A DNA stretch of 64,000 nt from NCBI GenBank assembly GCA_964013895.1, contig CAXGYF010000002.1, positions 35,316 to 99,315 on the forward strand. Reading direction: 5' to 3'. Origin of the DNA: an uncultured Acidimicrobiaceae bacterium (GTDB lineage Bacteria; Actinomycetota; Acidimicrobiia; Acidimicrobiales; MedAcidi-G1). A program made the position numbers and the translations under genes. Positions 11,880 to 60,225 of the stretch are shown here, piece after piece; the stretch's first letter is position 1, and the number at the start of each line of letters is the position of its first letter. The notes under the pieces were generated by a model. The model was not told where the DNA came from. It saw only the letters and a program-made list of their open reading frames with translations, and did not search any database.

Positions 11880-11952
11880 AATTTAAATGATTCCGAAACT
11901 GTTAAACACCTTACGAGATTAATAGGTGTATAACTTTCATAGACTCCAACGG

Positions 11953-12516
11953 ATGAATAAAACGACCGCTGTCTTGATTCCTATTAAATCTTTCCATGAC
12001 GCTAAGGGAAGACTCTCAGAAAGTCTGAGCAAATCTGAACGTTCTGTTCTTATGCAAAAGATGGCAGAAACCGTAATCGATTCATCAGGCCCTTTATCTA
12101 TCTGGGTGGTTTGTGACGATGACGAGGTTGCTGTCTGGGCTGAATCGAAAAATGTTTCGGTGATAAAAGTTGGGGAACCGGGTCTTAATTCTGCCATAGA
12201 AAAGGGTGTCAGCAGTCTTGAAAAAGCTGGTTTCTCTAAAGTAATAATTGCGCATGCTGATCTTCCTAATGCAGACAATCTTCAAAAATGTGCGGAATTT
12301 GAAGGAGTCACTATTGTTCAAGATCATAAAGGTGATGGAACACCCGTTTTAGTAATACCTACTGGTGAAGGTTTTCGTTTTTCATATGGCCCAGATTCAT
12401 TTGCTGCTCATACGTTGGAGGCACAACGTCTTGGGCTTCCGTATCGTCAATTATTCGATCCAAAACTTAGCTTTGATGTAGACGAACCAGAAGATTTAAA
12501 ATTTATTAAGAACTAA
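11953..12516 (+). CDS. cofC: 2-phospho-L-lactate/PEP guanylyltransferase (F420 biosynthesis)
   Basis: LIPIKSFHDAKGRL, GLNSA, AHADLP, DGT, FSYGPDSFAAH and DVDEPEDL; start moved from 11926 to ATG 11953. Confidence 0.9.
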   Translation: MNKTTAVLIPIKSFHDAKGRLSESLSKSERSVLMQKMAETVIDSSGPLSIWVVCDDDEVAVWAESKNVSVIKVGEPGLNSAIEKGVSSLEKAGFSKVIIAHADLPNADNLQKCAEFEGVTIVQDHKGDGTPVLVIPTGEGFRFSYGPDSFAAHTLEAQRLGLPYRQLFDPKLSFDVDEPEDLKFIKN

Positions 12517-17611: not shown

Positions 17612-18238
17612 TTAGGACCAAACTTTTGTCAATGATTCAACATCGGTCAATGTTGCTAAAACCGCAAGAGTGTTTTCAATAATAGTTTTTCCATATTCGA
17701 TCGGTACACCTGCTACAGCATCTATAGGGACTACAACTTGATAACCATTGTTTATTAGATCGAAAACACAATTTTGCACAGCAACGTTTAAGGAGACTCC
17801 ACTTACAATCACCGTAGAAATTTCTTCGTTTCTGAGCAAAGCGTCTAATTCGGTTCCCGATGTCGGTGAGAGACCATGAAATCTAGGAAGAAGGACATCT
17901 AGTTCGCTATCGAAACCTACTTCTTTTATCGGTTCTACTGTTTCAGTATCAGGCAACTGTTTTATAGGTGAGCGGCGAGCGGCTCCAAAAAGTCGAGCAT
18001 TATTATTTGACCCCCAACCATCTTCTCTTACCATTGCTAATCCATGAATTACTTTTATTTCTGAATTTCTTGCTGCTTGTGCGAGTTTTCCTAAGTTAGC
18101 AATAATGTTTTTAGAGGCTTCTGCAAGAGCTGGAAAACTAGACTTTTCGCCTATAACTCCATTTTGGCACTCCACCAAAAGTAAGGCAGTGTGATTAGGA
18201 TCTACTAAATCTTTAATTTCAAGATGTTCGCTACTCAT
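17612..18238 (-). CDS. Isochorismatase-fold protein with non-canonical active site
   Basis: TALLLVECQNG, VIVSGVSLNVAVQN and GYQVVVPIDAVAG. Confidence 0.82.
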   Translation of the reverse strand: MSSEHLEIKDLVDPNHTALLLVECQNGVIGEKSSFPALAEASKNIIANLGKLAQAARNSEIKVIHGLAMVREDGWGSNNNARLFGAARRSPIKQLPDTETVEPIKEVGFDSELDVLLPRFHGLSPTSGTELDALLRNEEISTVIVSGVSLNVAVQNCVFDLINNGYQVVVPIDAVAGVPIEYGKTIIENTLAVLATLTDVESLTKVWS

Positions 18239-20591
18239 ATTTGACTCCAGAATCTCTCAATAAGTCAATCCATCTTGTTCCCGCATCAGGAGCTAGTTCT
18301 CCAGGAACATAAGTAACCGAAATTAAACTTCCTTTGTAAGGAAATGGTCCGTGCCGCTCATACAAGGGCCATGAAACTGGCGATCTCCTGTCAATCCCAA
18401 CATCTATTCCTTCAAATGGAGCCATTGCAGTCAGCACAGGAAGATCAGGAGTCTCTGCAACTATGGATCCATCTACATATACCTGCGTATTCCATTTCAA
18501 ATCTCCCATCGCGTCGACTCTCAATTTTATTTCTTTAACACCGTCCGCAAGACTCCCGCAAGAAACCTCCGTCATAGTCCCATACCCGTTATGAACATGA
18601 TGAAGCTCACCGTTTTCTATGTACATGGAGTATCCACCTCCCTGATCCCCGTGAGCCACCAGTATCCCTTCGTCGCCTTTCTTATAATCGAGTGAAATTA
18701 TGATTTCAAAAGAACGAAAATTTATCAACTTGAGAGATCTGTATCTTTCTACTGTCGGCGTGCCAGGCAAGAAAGACTGAGTTTGTTCAAGTTCTTCCTC
18801 CCATTTCGGGCGGACGATATTTTTTAAACCTGTACCTTCATCAAGTGGAAACACCTGATTGGCCCAGGCTTCTTGTTCCCAAATATCTTTCAACTCAGCT
18901 AAAACTTCAGGGTGTGTATCCGACAGGTCGTTTGTTTCTGTCGGGTCGGTTGATAGGTCGAAAAGTTCCCATTTGTCTTCTGCGAATGAAGTTCGTTTCT
19001 GATGACAGGTTACTGCTGACCATCCTTCGCGATAAATACCCCTGTGCCCTTCTTGCTCGTAATACTGCAATGTGTGGGTGCTTTCAGCTTCTTCATTATT
19101 CATTGATTCAAGAAAGCTACTACCGTTAGGTGGTAACAACTTTTGACCTTTTCGTTCGTCTGGTATGTCAATTTCGAGCATTTCAAGAATCGTGGGCAGA
19201 AGATCAGTCACATGTTGATATTGCTTTCTGATTGATCCCGCGTCCTCCAAACCATCAGCTTTTGAAATTACTAAGGGAACTTGGTGGCCACCTTGATGTG
19301 TGTTTGTTTTATACAAGCGGAATGGAGTATTAGAAGCCATTGCCCATCCATTTGGATAATGAGCGAGTGCTTGTGGCCCCCCTAGTAGGTCCAACCTTGA
19401 ATTATCAGCTTCTACCGAATCAAGAGGATTCTCTCTAACTTGGCTGATCAGGGTTCTAAAATATGCCGAAGTTCCATTATCTAGGCCTTCCCTGCTCGCT
19501 CCATTATCCGAAGTGAAAACAACAACGGTGTTTTCCCATTCTCCCATAGCTTCTAATTCTTGTCGTAGCCTTCCAAAATTCTGGTCGACGTTGTCAACCA
19601 TTGCTGCATAAATCTCCTGATAACGGGCAAAAGTCTCTTTTTCCATTTCACTTAATTCATCCCATGGGCTTACTGCATAGTTCCTTTCTGTATTCCTTGG
19701 AGGTAGAACTGTTCCCTCGGGGATCAAACCAGATGAAATCTGGCGTTCGTAACGCTCTGCTCTGATTTTGTCCCATCCTCTGTTATACATTCCTTCATAT
19801 TTCTTTATGTCTTTTTCAGGAGCTTGAAGAGGGGCGTGTACAGCTCCATGGGAGAAATACATAAACCACGGTTTTTTTGGATGCCCTGTCCTCACTTCCT
19901 TTATCATGTCCAGGGCATGATCTGTTAGGTCATTAGTAAAAAAGTAGTTTTCTGGATACGAGTCAACCTGCACTACATGATTGTCTTCATATAAGCGATG
20001 CGGTTGATGAAAGTTTGTAAAACCATCAAGTATCCCGTAATAACGATCAAAGCCGCGTTGACAAGGCCAAGAATTTTTTGGGCCAGCTTCTGAAAGAGTG
20101 TTATCTGGCGTTAAATGCCACTTGCCAACCATAAGGGTTGCCCATCCATTGTCTGAAAGAATCTCAGCCAAAGTTGCAGTATCGCTTCGAATGGATGCTG
20201 CATAGCCAGGAAAACCAGGATCTGCGTGGCAGACCGTAGCTAATCCAGCTAAATGAGAATTTAAACCAGTAAGTAATGAAGCACGTGTTGGGGAACACAT
20301 TGGATTCACATGAAAATTTGTATATCGAATACCTTCGGCTGCTAGAGCATCCAAATTAGGTGTTTCAATCTCAGAACCATAAGAACCTAGATCTGAAAAA
20401 CCAAGGTCATCACATAGAACTATAAGAATGTTTGGTGCGTCTTCGTGAGGCTCATTTCTTTTTGGCCAAGCTGGTGAGGAAGTCGCGTGTAAGCGTCCGA
20501 TTTCTCCTTCGAATCCCGAGTACGCTTTATTCAAATTTTTTTCTTTGTCATTTCTGCCGGTTATTTTTTTGAACATGTCAGTTGCTTTCAT
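18231..20591 (-). CDS. Arylsulfatase (long mycobacterial AtsA/B/D type)
   Basis: DDLGF, formylglycine motif CSPTRASLLTG, GKWH, SDNG and a C-terminal LamG-like extension. Confidence 0.93.
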   Translation of the reverse strand: MKATDMFKKITGRNDKEKNLNKAYSGFEGEIGRLHATSSPAWPKRNEPHEDAPNILIVLCDDLGFSDLGSYGSEIETPNLDALAAEGIRYTNFHVNPMCSPTRASLLTGLNSHLAGLATVCHADPGFPGYAASIRSDTATLAEILSDNGWATLMVGKWHLTPDNTLSEAGPKNSWPCQRGFDRYYGILDGFTNFHQPHRLYEDNHVVQVDSYPENYFFTNDLTDHALDMIKEVRTGHPKKPWFMYFSHGAVHAPLQAPEKDIKKYEGMYNRGWDKIRAERYERQISSGLIPEGTVLPPRNTERNYAVSPWDELSEMEKETFARYQEIYAAMVDNVDQNFGRLRQELEAMGEWENTVVVFTSDNGASREGLDNGTSAYFRTLISQVRENPLDSVEADNSRLDLLGGPQALAHYPNGWAMASNTPFRLYKTNTHQGGHQVPLVISKADGLEDAGSIRKQYQHVTDLLPTILEMLEIDIPDERKGQKLLPPNGSSFLESMNNEEAESTHTLQYYEQEGHRGIYREGWSAVTCHQKRTSFAEDKWELFDLSTDPTETNDLSDTHPEVLAELKDIWEQEAWANQVFPLDEGTGLKNIVRPKWEEELEQTQSFLPGTPTVERYRSLKLINFRSFEIIISLDYKKGDEGILVAHGDQGGGYSMYIENGELHHVHNGYGTMTEVSCGSLADGVKEIKLRVDAMGDLKWNTQVYVDGSIVAETPDLPVLTAMAPFEGIDVGIDRRSPVSWPLYERHGPFPYKGSLISVTYVPGELAPDAGTRWIDLLRDSGVKYE

Positions 20592-32541: not shown

Positions 32542-33753
32542 ATGGAATTCGGTATTTTCAGCAACGGTTACATACCTGGACCGGCTGCCCATGACACAGA
32601 GTCCGAACATACGGAACTAATGCGTGAAGCTAGTTACGGGGTCTTAGCTGATAAAAACAACTGGAAATATATGTGGTTTGGCGAGCACCATGCTCTTACT
32701 GAATACAGTCACATGTCAGCCCCATCACCGTTGATGGGATGGGTAGCAGCACAAACAGACTACATACATCTTGGTTCGGCAATCACGAGTTTGCCGACGA
32801 ACAAAGAGCATCCGGTTCGCATCGCCGAAAGAGCTGCAATGCTTGATCATGTAACCGAAAATCGCTTTGAATTTGGAACTGGGCGCGGTGCAGGAAGCCA
32901 TGAACTTCTAAGTTTTAACGTCACAGATCCTAGTGAAACTAAAGCACAGTGGGATGAGGTTATTCGCGAGATACCTCGAATGTGGGAACAGAAAGACTAT
33001 GACTTTAAAGGAGAATTTTTTACTGTACCGACTCCACACAATATCCTTCCTAAACCATACGGTAAAGGCCACCCCCCTCTTTGGGTGGCTTGTGGGAATC
33101 CGCCAACATTTGCAAAAGCAGGATCACTTGGCATTGGTGCCATAGCATTCAACTTCGAACCTATTCATAACCTCAAAGGGCGTGTTGACGCATACAAAGA
33201 GGCTATTCAGGATCCAGCAGAACAAATTGGACAGTTTAAAAACGACAATGTCATGATGACTAACGCTGTTATTTGCCTTGAAAATCGAGATGAAGCAAGA
33301 GCTATCGCTAAAACAAAAGGTAGAGGCTACCTAGTAACCATGGTCAACATGTATCACGATACGATGCCCAAATCCCCCGACGCTGTGACTTGGCCTGACT
33401 CACCAATAGATCCGAACTGGACAGATGAAATGCTTGACTGGGCAATCGGCGAGGGATACATGCTCTGCGGAACACCTGAAGAGGTGTGTGAGCAACTGGT
33501 TCGTTACCAAGACGTAGGTTGCGATCAGGTCGTGTTCGGTTTACCAATCGAAGGAATGGCTCATGAACAGGTCCTGGAAATGCTCGAAATTTTTGGGCAA
33601 CGTGTGATTCCTGAATTCGACAAAGACCCTATTCATTCAACAGATCGCTATAGAGCAGAAGCGCAAAGAAAGTTTCCTGACTTTCAGTATGAACTTCCAG
33701 AAGACATATCGGTTTCTGTTTTGCCTTCGAATGCCCTATTGCCACTCGGATAA
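32542..33753 (+). CDS. LLM (luciferase-like) flavin/F420-dependent oxidoreductase
   Basis: WFGEHH, IHLGSAI, HPVRIAERAAMLD, RFEFGTGRG, HPPLWVA and CGTPEEV. Confidence 0.9.
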   Translation: MEFGIFSNGYIPGPAAHDTESEHTELMREASYGVLADKNNWKYMWFGEHHALTEYSHMSAPSPLMGWVAAQTDYIHLGSAITSLPTNKEHPVRIAERAAMLDHVTENRFEFGTGRGAGSHELLSFNVTDPSETKAQWDEVIREIPRMWEQKDYDFKGEFFTVPTPHNILPKPYGKGHPPLWVACGNPPTFAKAGSLGIGAIAFNFEPIHNLKGRVDAYKEAIQDPAEQIGQFKNDNVMMTNAVICLENRDEARAIAKTKGRGYLVTMVNMYHDTMPKSPDAVTWPDSPIDPNWTDEMLDWAIGEGYMLCGTPEEVCEQLVRYQDVGCDQVVFGLPIEGMAHEQVLEMLEIFGQRVIPEFDKDPIHSTDRYRAEAQRKFPDFQYELPEDISVSVLPSNALLPLG

Positions 33754-56007: not shown

Positions 56008-57162
56008 ATGTCAAATCAAAAACAACCACGATGGACTTTCCAATGGAAAGAATTGTACGAAGAAGTCATCGATACAGGGCTTTGTACCGGTTGTGCTGGG
56101 TGTGTGATCTCATGCCCGCATGATGTAATTGGATATGAACACGCTCCTGGTGCTTATAAGCCCTTCCACCTTGAAGACGAACTAGGAATAGACAACTGCG
56201 TGCATGGTGAAAAAGGTTGCACTTCCTGCACCCGAGCATGTCCAAGATTTAGGGACTGGGAAACTGAAGCAGAAATGCACCTGTTCGACCGTCACCGAAA
56301 GCCAGACGAACTTTCCGGAGTGTATAAAGACGTTCTACTCACTAGAGCTAGCGATTCGACAGTTCATGAACTTGGTCAAGATGGAGGTCTTGTCTCTGCG
56401 ATACTCATCTGGTGTTTAGACAATAAAATTATTGATGGAGCTTTAACTTCGCATCTAGAAAACGACGAAGAGAATGGAAACTCTTGGAAAGCTATTCCTG
56501 CATTAGCCACCGATAAAGAATCGGTATTAGCTGGAGCTGGGAGCAGATACACCTATTCTGCTAACACACTTGCTATTAATGAAGCGCGAGAAAAAAATCT
56601 TGAATCATTAGCTCTTGTAGGAATGAGTTGCCAAACTTCAATTGGTCCTGTTATGTGGAACCGTAAAGTCGGCAAAGCGGGGAAAACTATCAAATTGAAC
56701 ATCGGATTGTTATGTTCGAAATCTTTTGATGATTCAATTTTTGAAGAATTATTCTGGGCCAAGTACAGACTCCCTAAGGAAGAAATGACCAAAATGAACA
56801 TAAAAGGCGTTTTTCAAATATGGATGAAAAACGGTGACTATCATGAAATCAACCTTAAAGAATGTCACGCTTGGACAAGAGAAGGATGCAATCATTGTCC
56901 CGACTTTGCGGCCGAACACGCTGATATATCGACAGGCGGTATTGGTAAGTACAACGATTGGACATTGACTGTTGTCCGTACGGAACTAGGCCGTCAAATA
57001 ATCATGCGAATGCTTGAAGAAGGTGTGATAGAGGGCAGACCCGGCGACAGTGACCCAGATGCTATTGAACTAATGCACAAGTTGGCTGCAAAAAGTCGGT
57101 CTAGGTGGCCTGATTGGGCGAATTCTTCAGCAAGGGTAGGATTGCCTCAATATCAAGGGTGA
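56008..57162 (+). CDS. F420 hydrogenase/dehydrogenase beta-subunit family (FrhB) with N-terminal 2x[4Fe-4S], FpoF/FqoF-like
   Basis: CTGCAGCVISCP and C...CTSCTRACP; QDGGLVS, GSRY, VGMSCQ, IGLLC and CNHCPDFAAEHADISTG. Confidence 0.88.
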   Translation: MSNQKQPRWTFQWKELYEEVIDTGLCTGCAGCVISCPHDVIGYEHAPGAYKPFHLEDELGIDNCVHGEKGCTSCTRACPRFRDWETEAEMHLFDRHRKPDELSGVYKDVLLTRASDSTVHELGQDGGLVSAILIWCLDNKIIDGALTSHLENDEENGNSWKAIPALATDKESVLAGAGSRYTYSANTLAINEAREKNLESLALVGMSCQTSIGPVMWNRKVGKAGKTIKLNIGLLCSKSFDDSIFEELFWAKYRLPKEEMTKMNIKGVFQIWMKNGDYHEINLKECHAWTREGCNHCPDFAAEHADISTGGIGKYNDWTLTVVRTELGRQIIMRMLEEGVIEGRPGDSDPDAIELMHKLAAKSRSRWPDWANSSARVGLPQYQG

Positions 57163-57170
57163 GTGTTTAC

Positions 57171-57515
57171 TTACGCGCAAGCTTCGCTTGAGTCGTTCAA
57201 CCAACCATAATTTTCTGAAATCATTTGGGAATTCAAATCATCTCTGTGCTTACGAATAAAATCATCTAATTCTTTAAACTTTTCATAGGTGACTACATCT
57301 TGAACACGTTCAATGACACATTCGCAGTAACTTTTAGCTTTAAATGTTGACATGTCTGCATTAGATTCCTGACATGCTTCTACAAAGTTCCTAACTACCA
57401 GACCGTCTTGATCTTCCCATGTCTCAGGCTTACCATCGTTCGCACAACCTGTAGCCAGTAAGGCGCAAACAAAGATTCCTGCCAACAAACTCCTTTTTGA
57501 TGAAAACTTACCCAC
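57171..57515 (-). CDS. Small Cys-containing lipoprotein
   Basis: Lipobox LATGC; EAC...YCEC...EAC pattern. Confidence 0.7.
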   Translation of the reverse strand: MGKFSSKRSLLAGIFVCALLATGCANDGKPETWEDQDGLVVRNFVEACQESNADMSTFKAKSYCECVIERVQDVVTYEKFKELDDFIRKHRDDLNSQMISENYGWLNDSSEACA

Positions 57516-57544: not shown

Positions 57545-58219
57545 TCAATCGCTAGCAATGATTTTGGCTCGTTTAATAACTGTGTCGAACATCGATTCTG
57601 TCAATCGTCCAGTAAAAGTATTTTGCTGGCTTACATGATAAGAGCATAAAAGTTTTCTATTCGTATCAATTTCTATTTCCAAACCGTGAGAAAACTTAGG
57701 TTTTGGACTCAAACCAAACTCAATTGCCGCAGATGTGTAACCAATCTGACCTAAAGCAACAACAACTTTTATGTTAATCAAAGCCGAAATCTCTCTTTCA
57801 AAGAAAGGTCGACATCTACTCTGTTCTTTTATATTTGGTTTATTTGCTGGTGGGACACACTTAACAGGAGAAGTTATGAATACGTTTTCTAATTTAAGTC
57901 CATCTTCCAAACCGACTGATTCAGGTTGATTTGCGAGGCCTGACCTGTGAAGAGCCGCGTACAAAAAGTCTCCTGATCTGTCGCCGGTAAACACTCTTCC
58001 TGTTCTATTGGCTCCATGTGCACCCGGAGCCAATCCAACAATAAGTATTCGAGCTTTCGGATCTCCAAAACCTGGTACCGGCAAACCCCAATATTCCTGA
58101 TCTTTGTAGGCCGCACGTTTTTCTTTCGCAACTTTTTCGCGCCACGCGACCAACCTCGGACAAGCTCTGCATGAAACAACTTCTTGTTCTATTGCGTCTA
58201 ATTTAAGAACATGATCCAC
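57545..58219 (-). CDS. Uracil-DNA glycosylase family 5 (UdgB-like, 4Fe-4S)
   Basis: CRACPRL, GLAPGAHGANRTGRVF, KC.PPANKP and YHVSQQN. Confidence 0.92.
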   Translation of the reverse strand: MDHVLKLDAIEQEVVSCRACPRLVAWREKVAKEKRAAYKDQEYWGLPVPGFGDPKARILIVGLAPGAHGANRTGRVFTGDRSGDFLYAALHRSGLANQPESVGLEDGLKLENVFITSPVKCVPPANKPNIKEQSRCRPFFEREISALINIKVVVALGQIGYTSAAIEFGLSPKPKFSHGLEIEIDTNRKLLCSYHVSQQNTFTGRLTESMFDTVIKRAKIIASD

Positions 58220-58244
58220 ATCTGAAGGGTAGGTTAAACTATTA

Positions 58245-58886
58245 ATGGCAGCTACTTTAATAATCTTCGTACGTCATGGAAAAACTCCTACTACGGGGAC
58301 CAAACTCCCGGGAAGGGCACCCAACTTACATCTGTCAAATGAAGGAAAGTTGCAAGCAGAAATAGTTGCGGAAGAGATTGGGAAATCTTCAAATAGCTTT
58401 CTAGGCAAAAAAGTCTCTGCTATTTACGCATCACCCATGGAACGAACGCAAGAAACCGCTAAACCAATCGCTAAAACTCTTAATTTGCGTATTCGTACAC
58501 TTCAAGGACTGAATGAGTGCGATTTTGGCGACTGGACAGGTCGCAGATTGCGTGACCTCTCAAAACTGAAATCTTGGTCGATAATACAAAAACAGCCATC
58601 AAACTTTAGATTCCCCAATGGTGAGTCTTTTACTGAAATGCAGAATCGGATGATAAAGACCATCGACAAATTAGTTGAACGTCATTCCGGAGAAACAGTT
58701 ATATGCGTTTCGCATGCTGACCCTATTAAAGCAATACTGGCCTCTGCTGTTGGAACACCATTAGATCTATTTCAAAGAATAGTGGTGGGACCTTGCTCGG
58801 CTTCAGTAGTTCTCTACACAAAAGAAAGACCATTAGTCCTAAGTTTGAATTCAAACGGGAATTTTAGTGGTTCTTTAGGTTCGTAA
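58245..58886 (+). CDS. Histidine phosphatase (MSMEG_4193 family)
   Basis: RHG, SPMERTQET, LNECDFGDW and VSHADPIK. Confidence 0.9.
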   Translation: MAATLIIFVRHGKTPTTGTKLPGRAPNLHLSNEGKLQAEIVAEEIGKSSNSFLGKKVSAIYASPMERTQETAKPIAKTLNLRIRTLQGLNECDFGDWTGRRLRDLSKLKSWSIIQKQPSNFRFPNGESFTEMQNRMIKTIDKLVERHSGETVICVSHADPIKAILASAVGTPLDLFQRIVVGPCSASVVLYTKERPLVLSLNSNGNFSGSLGS

Positions 58887-58949
58887 AACAACTAACTTAT
58901 TATTGTTTCTGTTAAAAAAATTTAAATATGAAAGGTAGCGTCTATAGCA

Positions 58950-59453
58950 ATGGAACGCCCTGAAATAAACTGGGATCGAACTGAAAGTTTTACTGCAGGT
59001 ACTGTTGGCCCTCAGGGGCGGCGTATCTTTTTTCTGCAAGCCTCGTATGAAGATCAAGTTCTTTCTTTAAAAGTTGAGAAACAGCAAATGGCTGGGCTAG
59101 CTGATTTTCTAATGAGCATGCTCAATGATTTGCCTCCAAAAGATGCATCCGACCTTCTAGATAACACTGTGCAGGAAACAAAGTTTATTGATCCAGGGGA
59201 ACCTGACTGGGTAATAGGAAGTTTGGGTATCACTTATGAGCAATCAGGAGATCAACTAATACTTATAGCAGAAGAGCTAATAAGAGATGAAGACTCCGAA
59301 CCGGCTCAAGCTCGATTGGCATTAAGCCGACTTCAAGTTGAACATTTTATTCAAATAGCACAAGAATTAGTTTCGGCCGGCCGGCCGCCGTGCCCTTACT
59401 GCGGCTCCCCGCTAGAACCAGACGCTGCAGGCTGGTGTCCGTGTTTCAACTAG
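58950..59453 (+). CDS. DUF3090 family protein
   Basis: FTAGTVGPQGRRIFFLQA, LKVEKQQ and C-terminal GRPPCPYCG.P...CP. Confidence 0.88.
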   Translation: MERPEINWDRTESFTAGTVGPQGRRIFFLQASYEDQVLSLKVEKQQMAGLADFLMSMLNDLPPKDASDLLDNTVQETKFIDPGEPDWVIGSLGITYEQSGDQLILIAEELIRDEDSEPAQARLALSRLQVEHFIQIAQELVSAGRPPCPYCGSPLEPDAAGWCPCFN

Positions 59454-59466
59454 AAAGAAAAACGCC

Positions 59467-60225
59467 TTGAAAAAGGATCAAGAATCCAAAACTGAGCAAA
59501 ACCCTTTCAAAGATCGTGAACCCATCGAAAACGAACTTGCGCTCGAAATAATGCACTTTGGAGAAATCGAGATAGTTGGTCGCATGCCTTGGGCTTCGAA
59601 TGGGACGTTCCTAATAAACTTAGAATACAACGAGTCAAGTATCCAAGGCATATATAAACCTAGTAAAGGTGAAAGACCTTTGTACGATTTCCCGCATGGT
59701 ATCTACAAACGAGAGATAGCTGCTTTCGAACTGGCAAATTATTTGGGATGGGATCTGATACCGCCGACTGTCTCTAGAGATGGTCCTCTGGGAGTTGGTT
59801 CTTTGCAACTTTATGTGCCGTGTGATTATGAGATGCACTATTTCACTATCCGTGAGGACCCAGAGTTCAAAAATGATCTGATTCGTTTAGCTACTTTTGA
59901 TCTCCTAGTCAATAACACTGACAGGAAAGCGGGTCATGTCCTAGTAGGGAAAGATGGTTTTATTTGGGCTATCGACAATTCTCTGTGTTTTCACGAAGAA
60001 TTAAAAATTCGAACAGTTATTTGGGACTTCAGCGGAGAAGAAATCCCAAAAAACCTTATTTCAGACCTCACCGATCTAATGAATAAGGGAATACCGGAAA
60101 AATTCTCTGAACTACTGAATCCAAATGAAATTGAAGCTCTGATGCAAAGAACTAGAGCCTTGGTTACAAATGGTTCCTTACCGTATGATCCGTCAGGAAG
60201 GCAGGTTCCCTGGCCTCTACTATGA
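59467..60225 (+). CDS. SCO1664 family PI3/4-kinase-like protein
   Basis: GRMPWASNGTF, YKP..GERPL.DFP, REIAA and NNTDRKAGH...IDN. Confidence 0.88.
   Translation: MKKDQESKTEQNPFKDREPIENELALEIMHFGEIEIVGRMPWASNGTFLINLEYNESSIQGIYKPSKGERPLYDFPHGIYKREIAAFELANYLGWDLIPPTVSRDGPLGVGSLQLYVPCDYEMHYFTIREDPEFKNDLIRLATFDLLVNNTDRKAGHVLVGKDGFIWAIDNSLCFHEELKIRTVIWDFSGEEIPKNLISDLTDLMNKGIPEKFSELLNPNEIEALMQRTRALVTNGSLPYDPSGRQVPWPLL

What the first reader, a model, noticed from the sequence alone, without database searches (positions are those of the whole stretch)
56008..57162. Stand-alone FpoF/FqoF-like F420 oxidoreductase in an actinobacterium
Seen: an FrhB-family protein with an N-terminal 2x[4Fe-4S] ferredoxin domain and no hydrogenase, formate dehydrogenase or nuo/fpo neighbours. 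cofC (F420 synthesis) and an LLM enzyme are in the same window, and etfAB is 3 kb away. Known: this architecture matches archaeal FpoF/FqoF (F420H2 input module, also ferredoxin:F420 oxidoreductase); related folds are HCAR and BciB. Inference: an undescribed bacterial route that links the F420H2 pool to ferredoxin, complex I or ETF.
Basis: partly seen in the sequence, partly recalled or inferred. Interest (0 to 1): 0.65.

Follow-up and report, generated by a model that had tools for sequence, protein, structure and literature searches.

The report
Stand-alone bacterial F420-linked iron-sulfur flavoprotein
A marine Acidimicrobiia bacterium carries a single conserved gene built like the archaeal modules that move electrons between cofactor F420 and iron-sulfur proteins; it most likely links the cell's F420 pool to ferredoxin, a link not yet described in bacteria.

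Summary
ORF 56008-57162 (+) encodes a 384-aa protein with an N-terminal 2x[4Fe-4S] ferredoxin domain and an FrhB core. All 12 cluster cysteines are invariant in orthologues down to 36% identity.

- **Context:** it is single-copy, with no operon partner and no hydrogenase in the genome. F420 synthesis (cofC, cofD, cofE, fbiC), Fno and 21 luciferase-like genes are present.
- **Distribution:** orthologues form one bacterial clade (Acidimicrobiia, Nitriliruptor, Euzebya, other Actinomycetota, Chloroflexota). They were found almost only in cofE-positive genomes.
- **Family:** it is not an FpoF equivalog (122 bits against a 475-bit cut-off). The best solved match is the F420-reductase subunit of Ethanoperedens CO dehydrogenase.
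- **Complex I:** relatives carry a 14-gene nuo cluster followed by an 11-gene one without nuoEFG. That second complex also occurs without this gene, in Streptomyces-sized genomes and in 1-Mb Acidimicrobiia (0 of 26), so coupling is not obligate.
- **Ferredoxin:** outside Acidimicrobiia the gene lies within 10 kb of a 7Fe ferredoxin gene, often tail to tail, in about 41 genomes of 7 families.

My best reading is an F420H2:ferredoxin-type oxidoreductase (confidence 0.5). No paper found describes it. Other first readers of this scan flagged the same family on other genomes.

The parts
56008..57162 (+). FpoF-like / FrhB-family gene (384 aa, P0001): stand-alone F420-linked Fe-S flavoprotein
   Evidence: ORF and translation. 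Pfam and NCBIfam matches. 41 of 41 relatives carry one orthologue.
56065..56247 (+). N-terminal ferredoxin domain (residues 20-80). Two [4Fe-4S] motifs: C26-x2-C29-x2-C32-x3-C36-P, and C64...C71-x2-C74-x3-C78-P
   Evidence: Pfam Fer4_10/Fer4_7. All eight Cys are invariant in 15 orthologues of 36-68% identity. It aligns with the Fd domain of 8riu_B and 8rja_E.
56338..56574 (+). FrhB_FdhB_N domain (residues 111-189), with the invariant QDGG and GSRYTYS motifs also seen in the FrhB alignment
   Evidence: PF04422, 9.7e-19. Residue-level alignment to FrhB 3zfs_C. Invariant columns.
56602..57042 (+). FrhB_FdhB_C domain (residues 199-345), with the four Cys of the FrhB [4Fe-4S] cluster (C208, C236, C294, C297) and the CPDF...EHADIS.GG motif
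   Evidence: PF04432, 3.3e-28. The Cys are invariant in alignment A1. Same motifs in FrhB.
11926..12516 (+). cofC/fbiD (F420 biosynthesis). Context gene that supplies the proposed cofactor
   Evidence: PF01983, 89.9 bits against a 22-bit cut-off, at G000:C2:47283-47816.
32542..33753 (+). Luciferase-like monooxygenase-family gene, one of 21 in the genome. Context: a likely user or producer of F420H2
   Evidence: PF00296, 152.5 bits, at G000:C2:67857-68840.

Best explanation
The gene encodes a soluble, stand-alone flavo-iron-sulfur enzyme. It exchanges electrons between the two-electron hydride carrier F420/F420H2 and a one-electron iron-sulfur carrier, so it is in effect an F420H2:ferredoxin oxidoreductase.

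Proposed path: F420H2 gives a hydride to FAD in the FrhB core. Single electrons then pass to the core [4Fe-4S] cluster and on through the two [4Fe-4S] clusters of the N-terminal ferredoxin domain. That domain is the docking and exit surface. The reaction could also run in reverse.

In Nitriliruptor-like and several other Actinomycetota families the likely partner is a 7Fe FdxA/FdxC-type ferredoxin encoded beside the gene. Acidimicrobiia lack that ferredoxin. There the acceptor would be one of the two small single-cluster ferredoxins, or an Fe-S enzyme contacted directly. Fno would keep the F420 pool in balance with NADPH.

Shown here: the domain and cysteine anatomy, the phyletic nesting inside F420 producers, and the ferredoxin gene linkage. 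Inferred: F420 and FAD binding, the direction of electron flow, and the identity of the acceptor in Acidimicrobiia.
For: - **Architecture and residues:** Fd domain plus FrhB N and C domains. All 12 cluster Cys and the QDGG, GSRYTYS and CPDF..EHADIS.GG motifs are invariant across orthologues of 36-68% identity and are shared with FrhB.
- **Solved relatives:** the profile of the family matches F420 enzymes best. Full-length match to 8riu_B at 1.5e-71, FrhB at 1e-62 to 1e-66, FwdI (8rja_E) at 8e-65, Fsr at about 1e-50. HCAR scores only 1e-15. In 8RIU the Fd domain anchors the module to its partner, and F420 reduction was measured (PMC11493965).
- **F420 supply in the genome:** cofC, cofD, cofE, fbiC, Fno and 21 LLM genes.
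- **Nesting in F420 producers:** in a 401-genome Actinomycetota sample, every family with orthologue-level hits is cofE-positive, and cofE-free families have none. The one exception I saw among the handles I cross-checked is a 94%-complete MAG.
- **Ferredoxin linkage:** a 105-112-aa 7Fe ferredoxin gene lies within 10 kb, on the same contig, in about 41 genomes of 7 families. This includes 23 of 24 genomes in family f44, and gaps are as small as 21-130 bp, always tail to tail (against 35). Five genomes checked hold only 1-3 such ferredoxin genes each, and the best-scoring copy is always the one near this gene.
- **Stand-alone status:** no conserved operon partner and no hydrogenase. GOGAT has its own NADPH subunit.
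- **Possible acceptors in this genome:** two Fer4_15 ferredoxins.
- **Precedent:** soluble FpoF of Methanosarcina mazei acts as a ferredoxin:F420 oxidoreductase (from my own knowledge: Welte and Deppenmeier 2011, not read here).
Against: - Acidimicrobiia, where the gene is most conserved, have no 7Fe ferredoxin. It was not found in the own genome, in five near-complete relatives, or in any Acidimicrobiia genome of the phylum sample. The linkage evidence is therefore borrowed from other classes.
- The linked pairs are convergent, so they are not co-transcribed. Some of the linkage could be inherited synteny.
- Euzebya and several Nitriliruptor-family genomes show no linkage.
- No activity, expression or interaction data were available; the sequencing-run tool was down.
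- The AlphaFold model was poor (pLDDT 56.7), so the F420 pocket could not be inspected.
- F420H2, at about -340 mV (from memory), is a weak reductant for very low-potential clusters.
Confidence: 0.5

Rival explanations
1. It is a dedicated electron-input subunit of the second, NuoEFG-less complex I (nuo2). It would dock by its ferredoxin domain on NuoI2/B2/C2/D2 and make a bacterial Fqo/Fpo-type, proton-pumping F420H2:menaquinone oxidoreductase.
For: - The contig with nuoA-B-C-D-H-I-J-K has no nuoEFG between D and H.
- The same-genus genome G004 shows nuo1 (14 genes) directly followed by nuo2 (11 genes).
- Lopez-Perez et al. 2020 proposed F420 as the donor for such a cluster in Ca. Actinomarinales but named no FpoF (PMC7771536).
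- Both features are near-universal in Acidimicrobiales, and most genomes with the gene also have NuoI2.
- M. mazei fpoF is likewise encoded away from the fpo operon (from my own knowledge).
- The 21 LLM genes suggest a large F420H2 flux.
Against: **nuo2 without the gene**
- A 1.0-1.1-Mb Acidimicrobiia genus: gene 0 of 26, NuoI2 12 of 13, cofE 12 of 13.
- Families f24, f26, f27 and f28.
- A family of 7-10-Mb genomes (Streptomyces-sized), and others.

**The gene without nuo2**
- G209 (99% complete), G062, G120, G346 and G099.
- Within family f37 there is no positive association: both 10, gene only 3, nuo2 only 7, neither 0.

**Other points**
- The gene is never linked to nuo.
- The nuo2 subunits are not specifically Fpo-like: FpoD 318 against 600, FpoI 44 against 180.
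- The protein itself fails the FpoF cut-off.
Confidence: 0.2
2. It is a plug-in F420 reductase/oxidase module for some other Fe-S enzyme or pathway encoded elsewhere. Candidates are a cytochrome P450 system, sulfite or nitrite reduction, a CCG/HdrD-like protein, or ETF. This would resemble the zeta subunit of Ethanoperedens CODH or FwdI.
For: - The closest solved relatives are such docked modules.
- In 59 Acidimicrobiia loci with enough downstream sequence, the UDG gene and the His_Phos/DUF3090/SCO1664 trio follow in 43-45, and etfAB follows in 26-29.
- In G209 the trio follows 21 bp downstream on the same strand.
- The genome has three Fer4+CCG proteins, one of them next to fbiC.
- Earlier first-reader notes report the family next to a P450 and after amt-glnK in other genomes.
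Against: - No neighbour is conserved beyond one class, and the neighbours in other classes are unrelated housekeeping genes.
- GOGAT is already complete with GltD.
- The trio has no known redox role.
- ETF normally takes electrons from acyl-CoA dehydrogenases and has no Fe-S cluster (from my own knowledge).
Confidence: 0.15
3. It does not use F420. Like HCAR or BciB, it would be a ferredoxin-dependent FAD/Fe-S reductase acting on an organic substrate bound where F420 binds in FrhB.
For: HCAR shares the fold (Foldseek 6e-11). The F420 pocket could not be examined in the low-confidence model.
Against: - The family profile matches HCAR at only 1e-15, against 1e-62 to 1e-71 for F420 enzymes.
- Orthologues were found only in families that have cofE.
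- No chlorophyll-type pathway is expected in these heterotrophs (inference).
Confidence: 0.05

Closest known systems
Zeta subunit of the F420-reducing CO dehydrogenase/ACDS (PDB 8RIU chain B) and FwdI (PDB 8RJA chain E) of Candidatus Ethanoperedens thermophilum (Lemaire et al. 2024, PMC11493965)
   Same: Same three-part build and similar length: N-terminal 2x[4Fe-4S] ferredoxin domain, FrhB-type F420-reductase domain with [4Fe-4S] and FAD, and a short C-terminal tail. It is the best profile match among solved structures, at 1.5e-71 over the full length, and the top Foldseek hit.
   Different: The archaeal proteins are subunits of known catabolic complexes in an anaerobe. The window protein is bacterial, has no adjacent partner enzyme, and shares about 26-27% identity in the structural alignment.
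FpoF (Methanosarcina) / FqoF (Archaeoglobus), F420H2 dehydrogenase subunit F (NCBIfam NF040616, NF006808)
   Same: Same domain order. It aligns over the whole FpoF model (residues 19-361 to model positions 6-315). The genome also holds a NuoEFG-less complex I. The gene is unlinked to that cluster, as in M. mazei (the M. mazei detail is from my own knowledge).
   Different: It scores 122 and 115 bits against curated cut-offs of 475 and 444. More than 300 cluster representatives score at or below 1e-30, better than its FpoF-model score suggests for FpoF itself. Its presence does not track the NuoEFG-less complex.
FrhB, beta subunit of the F420-reducing [NiFe] hydrogenase (PDB 3ZFS/4OMF, 6QGR, 9R51)
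   Same: The FAD/[4Fe-4S] core is the most similar part by sequence: 2e-40 for the single sequence and 1e-62 to 1e-66 for the family profile. QDGG, xRYTxSxN and C..C.D...E.AD.S.G..G are shared.
   Different: FrhB lacks the fused ferredoxin domain, which FrhG provides, and works with FrhA and FrhG. No [NiFe] large subunit was found in this genome or in four congeners. It is below the FrhB cut-offs (204 against 269, 177 against 331.5).
N-terminal half of F420-dependent sulfite reductase Fsr (PDB 7NP8, 7NPA; PMC10229431)
   Same: N-terminal ferredoxin domain plus F420H2-oxidase domain, with the same cluster relay.
   Different: Fsr carries a fused siroheme sulfite-reductase half. The window protein ends after the oxidase domain.

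Membership tests
FpoF/FqoF (F420H2 dehydrogenase subunit F) | N-terminal 2x[4Fe-4S] domain fused to an FrhB-type FAD/[4Fe-4S] core | tested here: met
   Pfam domains. 12 invariant Cys.
FpoF/FqoF (F420H2 dehydrogenase subunit F) | Score at or above the curated NCBIfam cut-off (NF040616, NF006808) | tested here: not met
   122.2 bits against 475, and 114.7 against 444.
FpoF/FqoF (F420H2 dehydrogenase subunit F) | Genome encodes a complex I homologue without NuoEFG | tested here: met
   nuoA-B-C-D-H-I-J-K on contig C45, with L-M-N on C35. Full layout in the same-genus genome G004.
FpoF/FqoF (F420H2 dehydrogenase subunit F) | Presence tied to that complex (co-occurrence) | tested here: not met
   nuo2 without the gene in many families, including a 1-Mb Acidimicrobiia genus (gene 0 of 26 against NuoI2 12 of 13). 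The gene without nuo2 in G209 and others. No association within family f37.
FpoF/FqoF (F420H2 dehydrogenase subunit F) | Physical association with the membrane complex, and F420H2:quinone activity | not testable with these tools
   Needs biochemistry or complexome data.
FrhB (F420-reducing hydrogenase beta subunit) | FrhB_FdhB_N and FrhB_FdhB_C domains with the cluster cysteines | tested here: met
   PF04422 at 9.7e-19 and PF04432 at 3.3e-28. Alignment to 3zfs_C.
FrhB (F420-reducing hydrogenase beta subunit) | Curated cut-off of the FrhB models | tested here: not met
   204.2 against 269 (NF006807), and 176.6 against 331.5 (TIGR03289).
FrhB (F420-reducing hydrogenase beta subunit) | FrhA/FrhG hydrogenase partners | tested here: not met
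   No PF00374 match in the own genome or in four same-genus genomes. None in the window.
FrhB-family plug-in F420 reductase/oxidase modules with an N-terminal Fd domain (CODH zeta, FwdI, Fsr-N) | Full-length similarity and the same cofactor-binding layout | tested here: met
   8riu_B at 1.5e-71 (profile positions 10-355 to chain residues 10-339) and 8rja_E at 8e-65. Foldseek ranks 1 and 5.
FrhB-family plug-in F420 reductase/oxidase modules with an N-terminal Fd domain (CODH zeta, FwdI, Fsr-N) | Encoded with, or fused to, its partner enzyme | tested here: not met
   No conserved operon partner in 25 + 80 loci. The only recurrent neighbour outside Acidimicrobiia is a convergent 7Fe ferredoxin gene.
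F420-dependent enzymes in general | Host makes F420 | tested here: met
   cofC, cofD at 336 bits, cofE at 254 bits, fbiC at 451 bits.
F420-dependent enzymes in general | Phyletic distribution nested within F420 producers | tested here: met
   Every family with orthologues is cofE-positive, and cofE-free families have none. One exception seen, in a 94%-complete MAG.
F420-dependent enzymes in general | F420 binding and turnover | not testable with these tools
   The model was too poor (pLDDT 56.7), and no assay was possible.
HCAR / BciB (chlorophyll-related FrhB homologues) | Closer to HCAR than to the F420 enzymes | tested here: not met
   5dqr_A at 1.1e-15, against 1e-62 to 1e-71 for F420 enzymes. 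BciB was not available for comparison.

The most novel reading that the evidence does not exclude
In Acidimicrobiales, which have lost the 7Fe ferredoxin, the protein has become the F420H2 entry point of the respiratory chain. It would dock directly on the NuoEFG-less second complex I, or feed it through a small ferredoxin. Abundant marine actinobacteria would then run an Fqo-like, proton-pumping F420H2:menaquinone oxidoreductase. That would be the first F420-driven respiration in aerobic bacteria, and it would explain why a 1.7-Mb genome keeps 21 LLM genes.
Probability: 0.2. Interest if true: 0.8.

Novelty: new member of a known kind. Interest (0 to 1): 0.55.

Why it matters
The reviews read here list bacterial F420 enzymes only from the LLM, FDOR/PPOX and Fno families. 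They treat FrhB-type Fe-S flavoproteins (Frh, Fpo/Fqo, Fsr) as archaeal (PMC8498797).

A 2011 survey of the 11-subunit complex I found FpoF only in Euryarchaeota and found no partner protein in bacteria (PMC3144371).

This gene defines a conserved bacterial clade, core to Acidimicrobiales (one gene in each of 41 relatives) and present in cultured Nitriliruptor and Euzebya. It would give bacteria a way to turn F420H2 hydrides into single low-potential electrons, or the reverse.

That makes two open questions directly testable:
- how aerobic actinobacteria reoxidise F420H2;
- what feeds ferredoxin, and possibly the 'headless' complex I.

Cultured hosts are available for these tests.

Tried and rejected
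- **Obligate Nuo2 partner.** Tested by three matched 401-genome searches (FpoF-like, cofE, NuoI2-type) plus a class sample. Rejected as obligate.
The genome has GltB plus a complete GltD, so this is unlikely.
- **Hydrogenase subunit.** No [NiFe] large subunit.
- **Formate dehydrogenase partner.** The only NuoF-like gene is a NuoE-NuoF fusion next to molybdopterin genes on contig C12. It has its own NAD-type module and is unlinked.
- **Conserved operon partner.** None found.
- **'No ferredoxin in the genome'.** I first thought so after tblastn with the 7Fe type. A motif scan then found two Fer4_15 ferredoxins.
- **Structure.** The AlphaFold2 model from 24 close homologues was poor (pLDDT 56.7). 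It was used only for a fold search. A deeper alignment could not be submitted, because most diverse orthologues came from loci that the tool does not accept.
- **Named phylogeny with FpoF, FqoF, HCAR and BciB.** Named reference sequences were not retrievable. I replaced it with HMM and PDB score comparisons and a tree with unnamed cluster representatives.
Full report
**Observation**

The ORF at 56008-57162 (+) is real and encodes 384 residues. Pfam finds a 4Fe-4S dicluster domain (residues 20-80), FrhB_FdhB_N (111-189, 9.7e-19) and FrhB_FdhB_C (199-345, 3.3e-28).

NCBIfam hits FrhB and FpoF models over their full length, but every score is far below the curated cut-off:
- FrhB: 204 against 269, and 177 against 331.5.
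- FpoF: 122 against 475, and 115 against 444.

The neighbours are a dienelactone hydrolase, a 114-aa ORF with no family, a UDG-family glycosylase, a His_Phos_1 / DUF3090 / SCO1664 trio, and etfA/etfB 3.07 kb downstream. cofC is at 11926-12516 and one LLM gene at 32542-33753.

**The organism and its F420 and respiratory equipment**

The window lies on contig C2 of a 1.73-Mb, 54-contig, 92%-complete genome. The nearest public locus, 99% identical, is 'Acidimicrobiales bacterium AG-414-N20'. The 80 best genome loci are all Acidimicrobiia, including Microthrixaceae, Ilumatobacteraceae, Iamiaceae, Poriferisodalis and Aldehydirespirator.

F420 equipment:
- cofD, cofE and a fused cofG/cofH (fbiC) are present above their cut-offs.
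- Fno is present at 166.8 bits against a cut-off of 149.8.
- A true Fgd is not present.
- The genome has 21 luciferase-like genes.
- This is the only FrhB-family gene in the genome.
- There is no [NiFe] hydrogenase large subunit in it or in four congeners.

Respiratory equipment:
- The only NuoD lies on contig C45 in the order nuoA-B-C-D-H-I-J-K, with no nuoEFG.
- A second L/M/N set sits at the end of contig C35.
- In the 4-contig same-genus genome G004, a 14-gene nuo1 (with E, F, G) is directly followed by an 11-gene nuo2.
- The own assembly therefore most likely lost the head of nuo1 at a contig break. It cannot be said to lack nuoEFG.
- The only NuoF-like gene found in the assembly is a NuoE-NuoF fusion beside molybdopterin genes on contig C12. 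It looks like a formate-dehydrogenase-type unit and is unrelated to nuo.
- The twin-cluster layout is already published for Ca. Actinomarinales. The authors there suggested F420 as donor for the truncated cluster, and the F420 passages I read name no FpoF (PMC7771536). An earlier follow-up of this scan (e1-2151370) also noted the layout.

**Anatomy and family**

An alignment of 15 orthologues (36-68% identical to the window protein) has 12 invariant cysteines:
- C26, C29, C32, C36, and C64, C71, C74, C78: two ferredoxin-type [4Fe-4S] motifs.
- C208, C236, C294, C297: the FrhB cluster.

The motifs QDGG, GSRYTYS and CPDF..EHADIS.GG are also invariant and recur in the HMMER alignment to FrhB of Methanothermobacter.

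The family profile against all PDB sequences gives:

| Target | E-value |
|---|---|
| 8riu_B (full length) | 1.5e-71 |
| FrhB chains | 1e-62 to 1e-66 |
| 8rja_E | 8e-65 |
| Fsr | about 1e-50 |
| FdhB | 1e-22 to 1e-29 |
| HCAR | 1e-15 |

8RIU_B is the zeta subunit of the F420-reducing CO dehydrogenase of Ca. Ethanoperedens. It has a ferredoxin domain (1-83) that anchors it to the partner, an F420-reductase domain (84-349) with [4Fe-4S] and FAD, and a C-terminal dimerisation tail. 8RJA_E is the analogous FwdI (PMC11493965).

The AlphaFold2 model was of low confidence (pLDDT 56.7, pTM 0.61). Its Foldseek ranking nevertheless repeats the same list.

The protein therefore belongs to the F420-reactive branch of the FrhB superfamily and has the FpoF/zeta/FwdI/Fsr-N build. 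It meets no equivalog definition.

**Distribution**

- One orthologue was found in each of 41 relatives, covering 17 families of the order.
- In a 401-genome Actinomycetota sample (completeness at least 90%), 169 genomes had a hit at 1e-10 or better; the full-length orthologue-level hits among them are at 37-74% identity. A further family (f41) has only a 33%-identical paralogue.
- In a class-level sample, 77 of 141 Acidimicrobiia genomes have it.
- Named hosts outside Acidimicrobiia include Nitriliruptor (two copies) and Euzebya. One 44%-identical cluster is from Chloroflexota.
- In a maximum-likelihood tree, all these bacterial sequences form one clade (UFboot 99, SH-aLRT 94).
- A profile of the nearest sequences outside that clade retrieves proteins of about 350 aa. 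Those that carry names come from Candidatus Bathyarchaeia.

**F420 dependence, indirect test**

cofE was searched in the same 401 genomes. Every family with orthologues is cofE-positive. Examples, as orthologue then cofE counts out of the family total:
- f18: 5, 5 of 5
- f7: 13, 13 of 13
- f31: 22, 24 of 27
- f36: 12, 13 of 13
- f37: 13, 20 of 20
- f38: 8, 8 of 8
- f40: 9, 10 of 11
- f44: 24, 24 of 24

Families without cofE (f42 0 of 13, f43 0 of 30, f32, f46) have none. Among the handles I cross-checked, I saw one exception, a 94%-complete MAG.

Many cofE-positive families lack the gene. These include the families of 7-10-Mb and 5-7.5-Mb genomes, f24 and f45.

This nesting is what an F420-dependent enzyme predicts. 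Relatedness of the genomes inflates the apparent strength of the pattern.

**Complex I hypothesis**

NuoI2 is only 31% identical to NuoI1, so it marks nuo2 cleanly. It was found in 164 of the 401 genomes, one copy each.

Most genomes with the FpoF-like gene have it. The exceptions run in both directions.

nuo2 without the gene:
- f24 (3 of 3), and f26, f27, f28;
- the family of 7-10-Mb genomes, f74 and others;
- a genus of 1.0-1.1-Mb Acidimicrobiia: gene 0 of 26, NuoI2 12 of 13, cofE 12 of 13. Its size fits Ca. Actinomarina, but I could not verify the name.

The gene without nuo2: G209 (99% complete), G062, G120, G346 and G099.

Within family f37 the counts are: both 10, gene only 3, nuo2 only 7, neither 0.

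Two further points weaken the hypothesis. The gene is never near nuo; in G030 it is at 689 kb against 830 and 859 kb. The nuo2 subunits match generic Nuo models better than Fpo models.

The NuoEFG-less complex therefore does not need this protein. A facultative docking role in Acidimicrobiales is not excluded.

**Ferredoxin lead**

Clustering the neighbours of 25 orthologue loci revealed a 105-112-aa gene of very high GC3 beside the orthologue in non-Acidimicrobiia genomes. Its Pfam hits and its sequence (CxxxxxxxCxxxCP...CxxCxxCxxxCP) identify a 7Fe FdxA/FdxC-type ferredoxin.

I compared the coordinates of this ferredoxin with those of the FpoF-like gene in the same 401 genomes. The two lie on the same contig within 10 kb in about 41 genomes of 7 families:

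| Family | Linked genomes | Distances |
|---|---|---|
| f44 | 23 of 24 | 44 bp to 6.2 kb |
| f64 | 2 of 2 | 1.1 and 2.4 kb |
| f60 | 2 of 2 | 169 and 358 bp |
| f68 | 1 | 21 bp |
| f40 | 6 | 0.9-2.7 kb |
| f37 | 5 | 1.2-9.7 kb |
| f33 | 1 | 2.0 kb |

When the two genes are adjacent, they are always tail to tail.

Five genomes checked have only 1-3 such ferredoxin genes each. In every one, the best-scoring copy is the one near this gene. A random gene would have one within a 17-kb span in roughly 1-2% of cases.

No linkage is seen in Euzebya (203 kb apart), in some f37 genomes, or in f56.

No other neighbour recurs.

Acidimicrobiia lack this ferredoxin altogether. The own genome does have two single-cluster Fer4_15 ferredoxins, of 76 and 89 aa.

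Within Acidimicrobiia, the conserved synteny is a downstream block of UDG and the His_Phos/DUF3090/SCO1664 trio, found in 43-45 of 59 loci. etfAB is found in 26-29 of 59.

**Mechanism proposed**

1. F420H2 donates a hydride to FAD in the FrhB core.
2. Single electrons leave through the core cluster and the two clusters of the N-terminal domain.
3. They reach a ferredoxin-type acceptor. The flow may also run in reverse.

This is the chemistry shown for Frh, Fsr, and the Ethanoperedens CODH and Fwd modules (PMC10229431; PMC11493965). From my own knowledge, it is also the chemistry of soluble FpoF acting as a ferredoxin:F420 oxidoreductase.

Shown here: the anatomy, the phyletic nesting in F420 producers, the ferredoxin linkage, and the absence of other partners. 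Inferred: cofactor binding, the direction of flow, and the acceptor in Acidimicrobiia.

I put 0.5 on the F420:ferredoxin-type reading, 0.2 on a dedicated Nuo2 input subunit, 0.15 on another docked partner, and 0.05 on a non-F420 reductase.

**Novelty**

- The 2021 F420 review lists Fpo and Fqo as archaeal, does not mention FrhB by name, and its Fpo, Fqo and ferredoxin passages describe only archaeal enzymes (PMC8498797).
- The 2011 complex I survey found FpoF only in Euryarchaeota and found no partner for bacterial 11-subunit enzymes (PMC3144371).
- My other searches found no paper on the bacterial family.
- Public databases name it only 'coenzyme F420 hydrogenase subunit beta' or 'oxidoreductase'.
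- Other first readers of this scan flagged the same stand-alone family on seven other genomes. No follow-up on the gene was shown for them.

It is a new bacterial member of a known kind of module, not a new kind of enzyme.

**Limits**

- The structural model is poor.
- Genome samples are phylogenetically non-independent.
- The ferredoxin evidence comes from classes other than the window's own.

Noticed in passing
G000 genome-wide; in the window at 32542-33753 (+): There are 21 luciferase-like (PF00296) genes in a 1.73-Mb streamlined genome, with Fno but no true Fgd. That is a very high density of probable F420/FMN oxidoreductases for a marine oligotroph.
   Followed up: partly
G000 contig C45 (L009:1-9229) and the end of contig C35; G004:C3:566-592 kb (L023, L024): Two nuo clusters in tandem: a 14-gene nuo1, then an 11-gene nuo2 lacking E, F and G. 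NuoD2 lacks about 25 residues of the canonical NuoD model, and NuoC2 is 235 aa against 155 aa for NuoC1. The own assembly breaks inside nuo1, so its nuoA1-K1 genes are missing.
   Followed up: partly
Genomes of family code f41, for example G238:C46:13952-14914 against cofE at 17612-18340; also G066, G051, G096, G152, G381, G370: A 33%-identical FrhB-like paralogue lies 3-5 kb from cofE in many 3-Mb actinobacterial genomes. It looks like a different stand-alone FrhB family tied to the F420 biosynthesis locus.
   Followed up: no
G000:C12:22579-26850 (L010:2580-6851, - strand): A NuoE-NuoF fusion (594 aa) is flanked by a molybdopterin-domain gene (540 aa) and a NuoG-N-terminal-like Fe-S gene (313 aa) in an unusual order. 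It looks like an NAD-linked formate-dehydrogenase-type unit with a split catalytic subunit.
   Followed up: no
window 57545-60225, and 59 Acidimicrobiia loci (L049-L128): A block of UDG-family glycosylase plus the His_Phos_1 / DUF3090 / SCO1664 trio follows the FpoF-like gene in about 75% of Acidimicrobiia loci. In G209 the trio starts 21 bp after it on the same strand. The function of the trio is unknown.
   Followed up: partly
window 57171-57515 (-): A 114-aa ORF convergent with the FpoF-like gene matches no Pfam or NCBIfam family. It is recognisable in only 9 of 59 related loci.
   Followed up: partly
G000:C3:32096-33277 (+), next to fbiC (C3, about 33.4-35.8 kb, -): A 393-aa Fer4_8 + 2xCCG protein (GlcF/HdrD-like) is encoded beside the F420 synthase gene fbiC. 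Two further Fer4+CCG proteins are on contigs C1 and C9.
   Followed up: no
window 56553-56801 (-): An 82-aa antisense ORF inside the FpoF-like gene appears 'conserved' in relatives only because it shadows the conserved sense frame. It is not a gene.
   Followed up: yes
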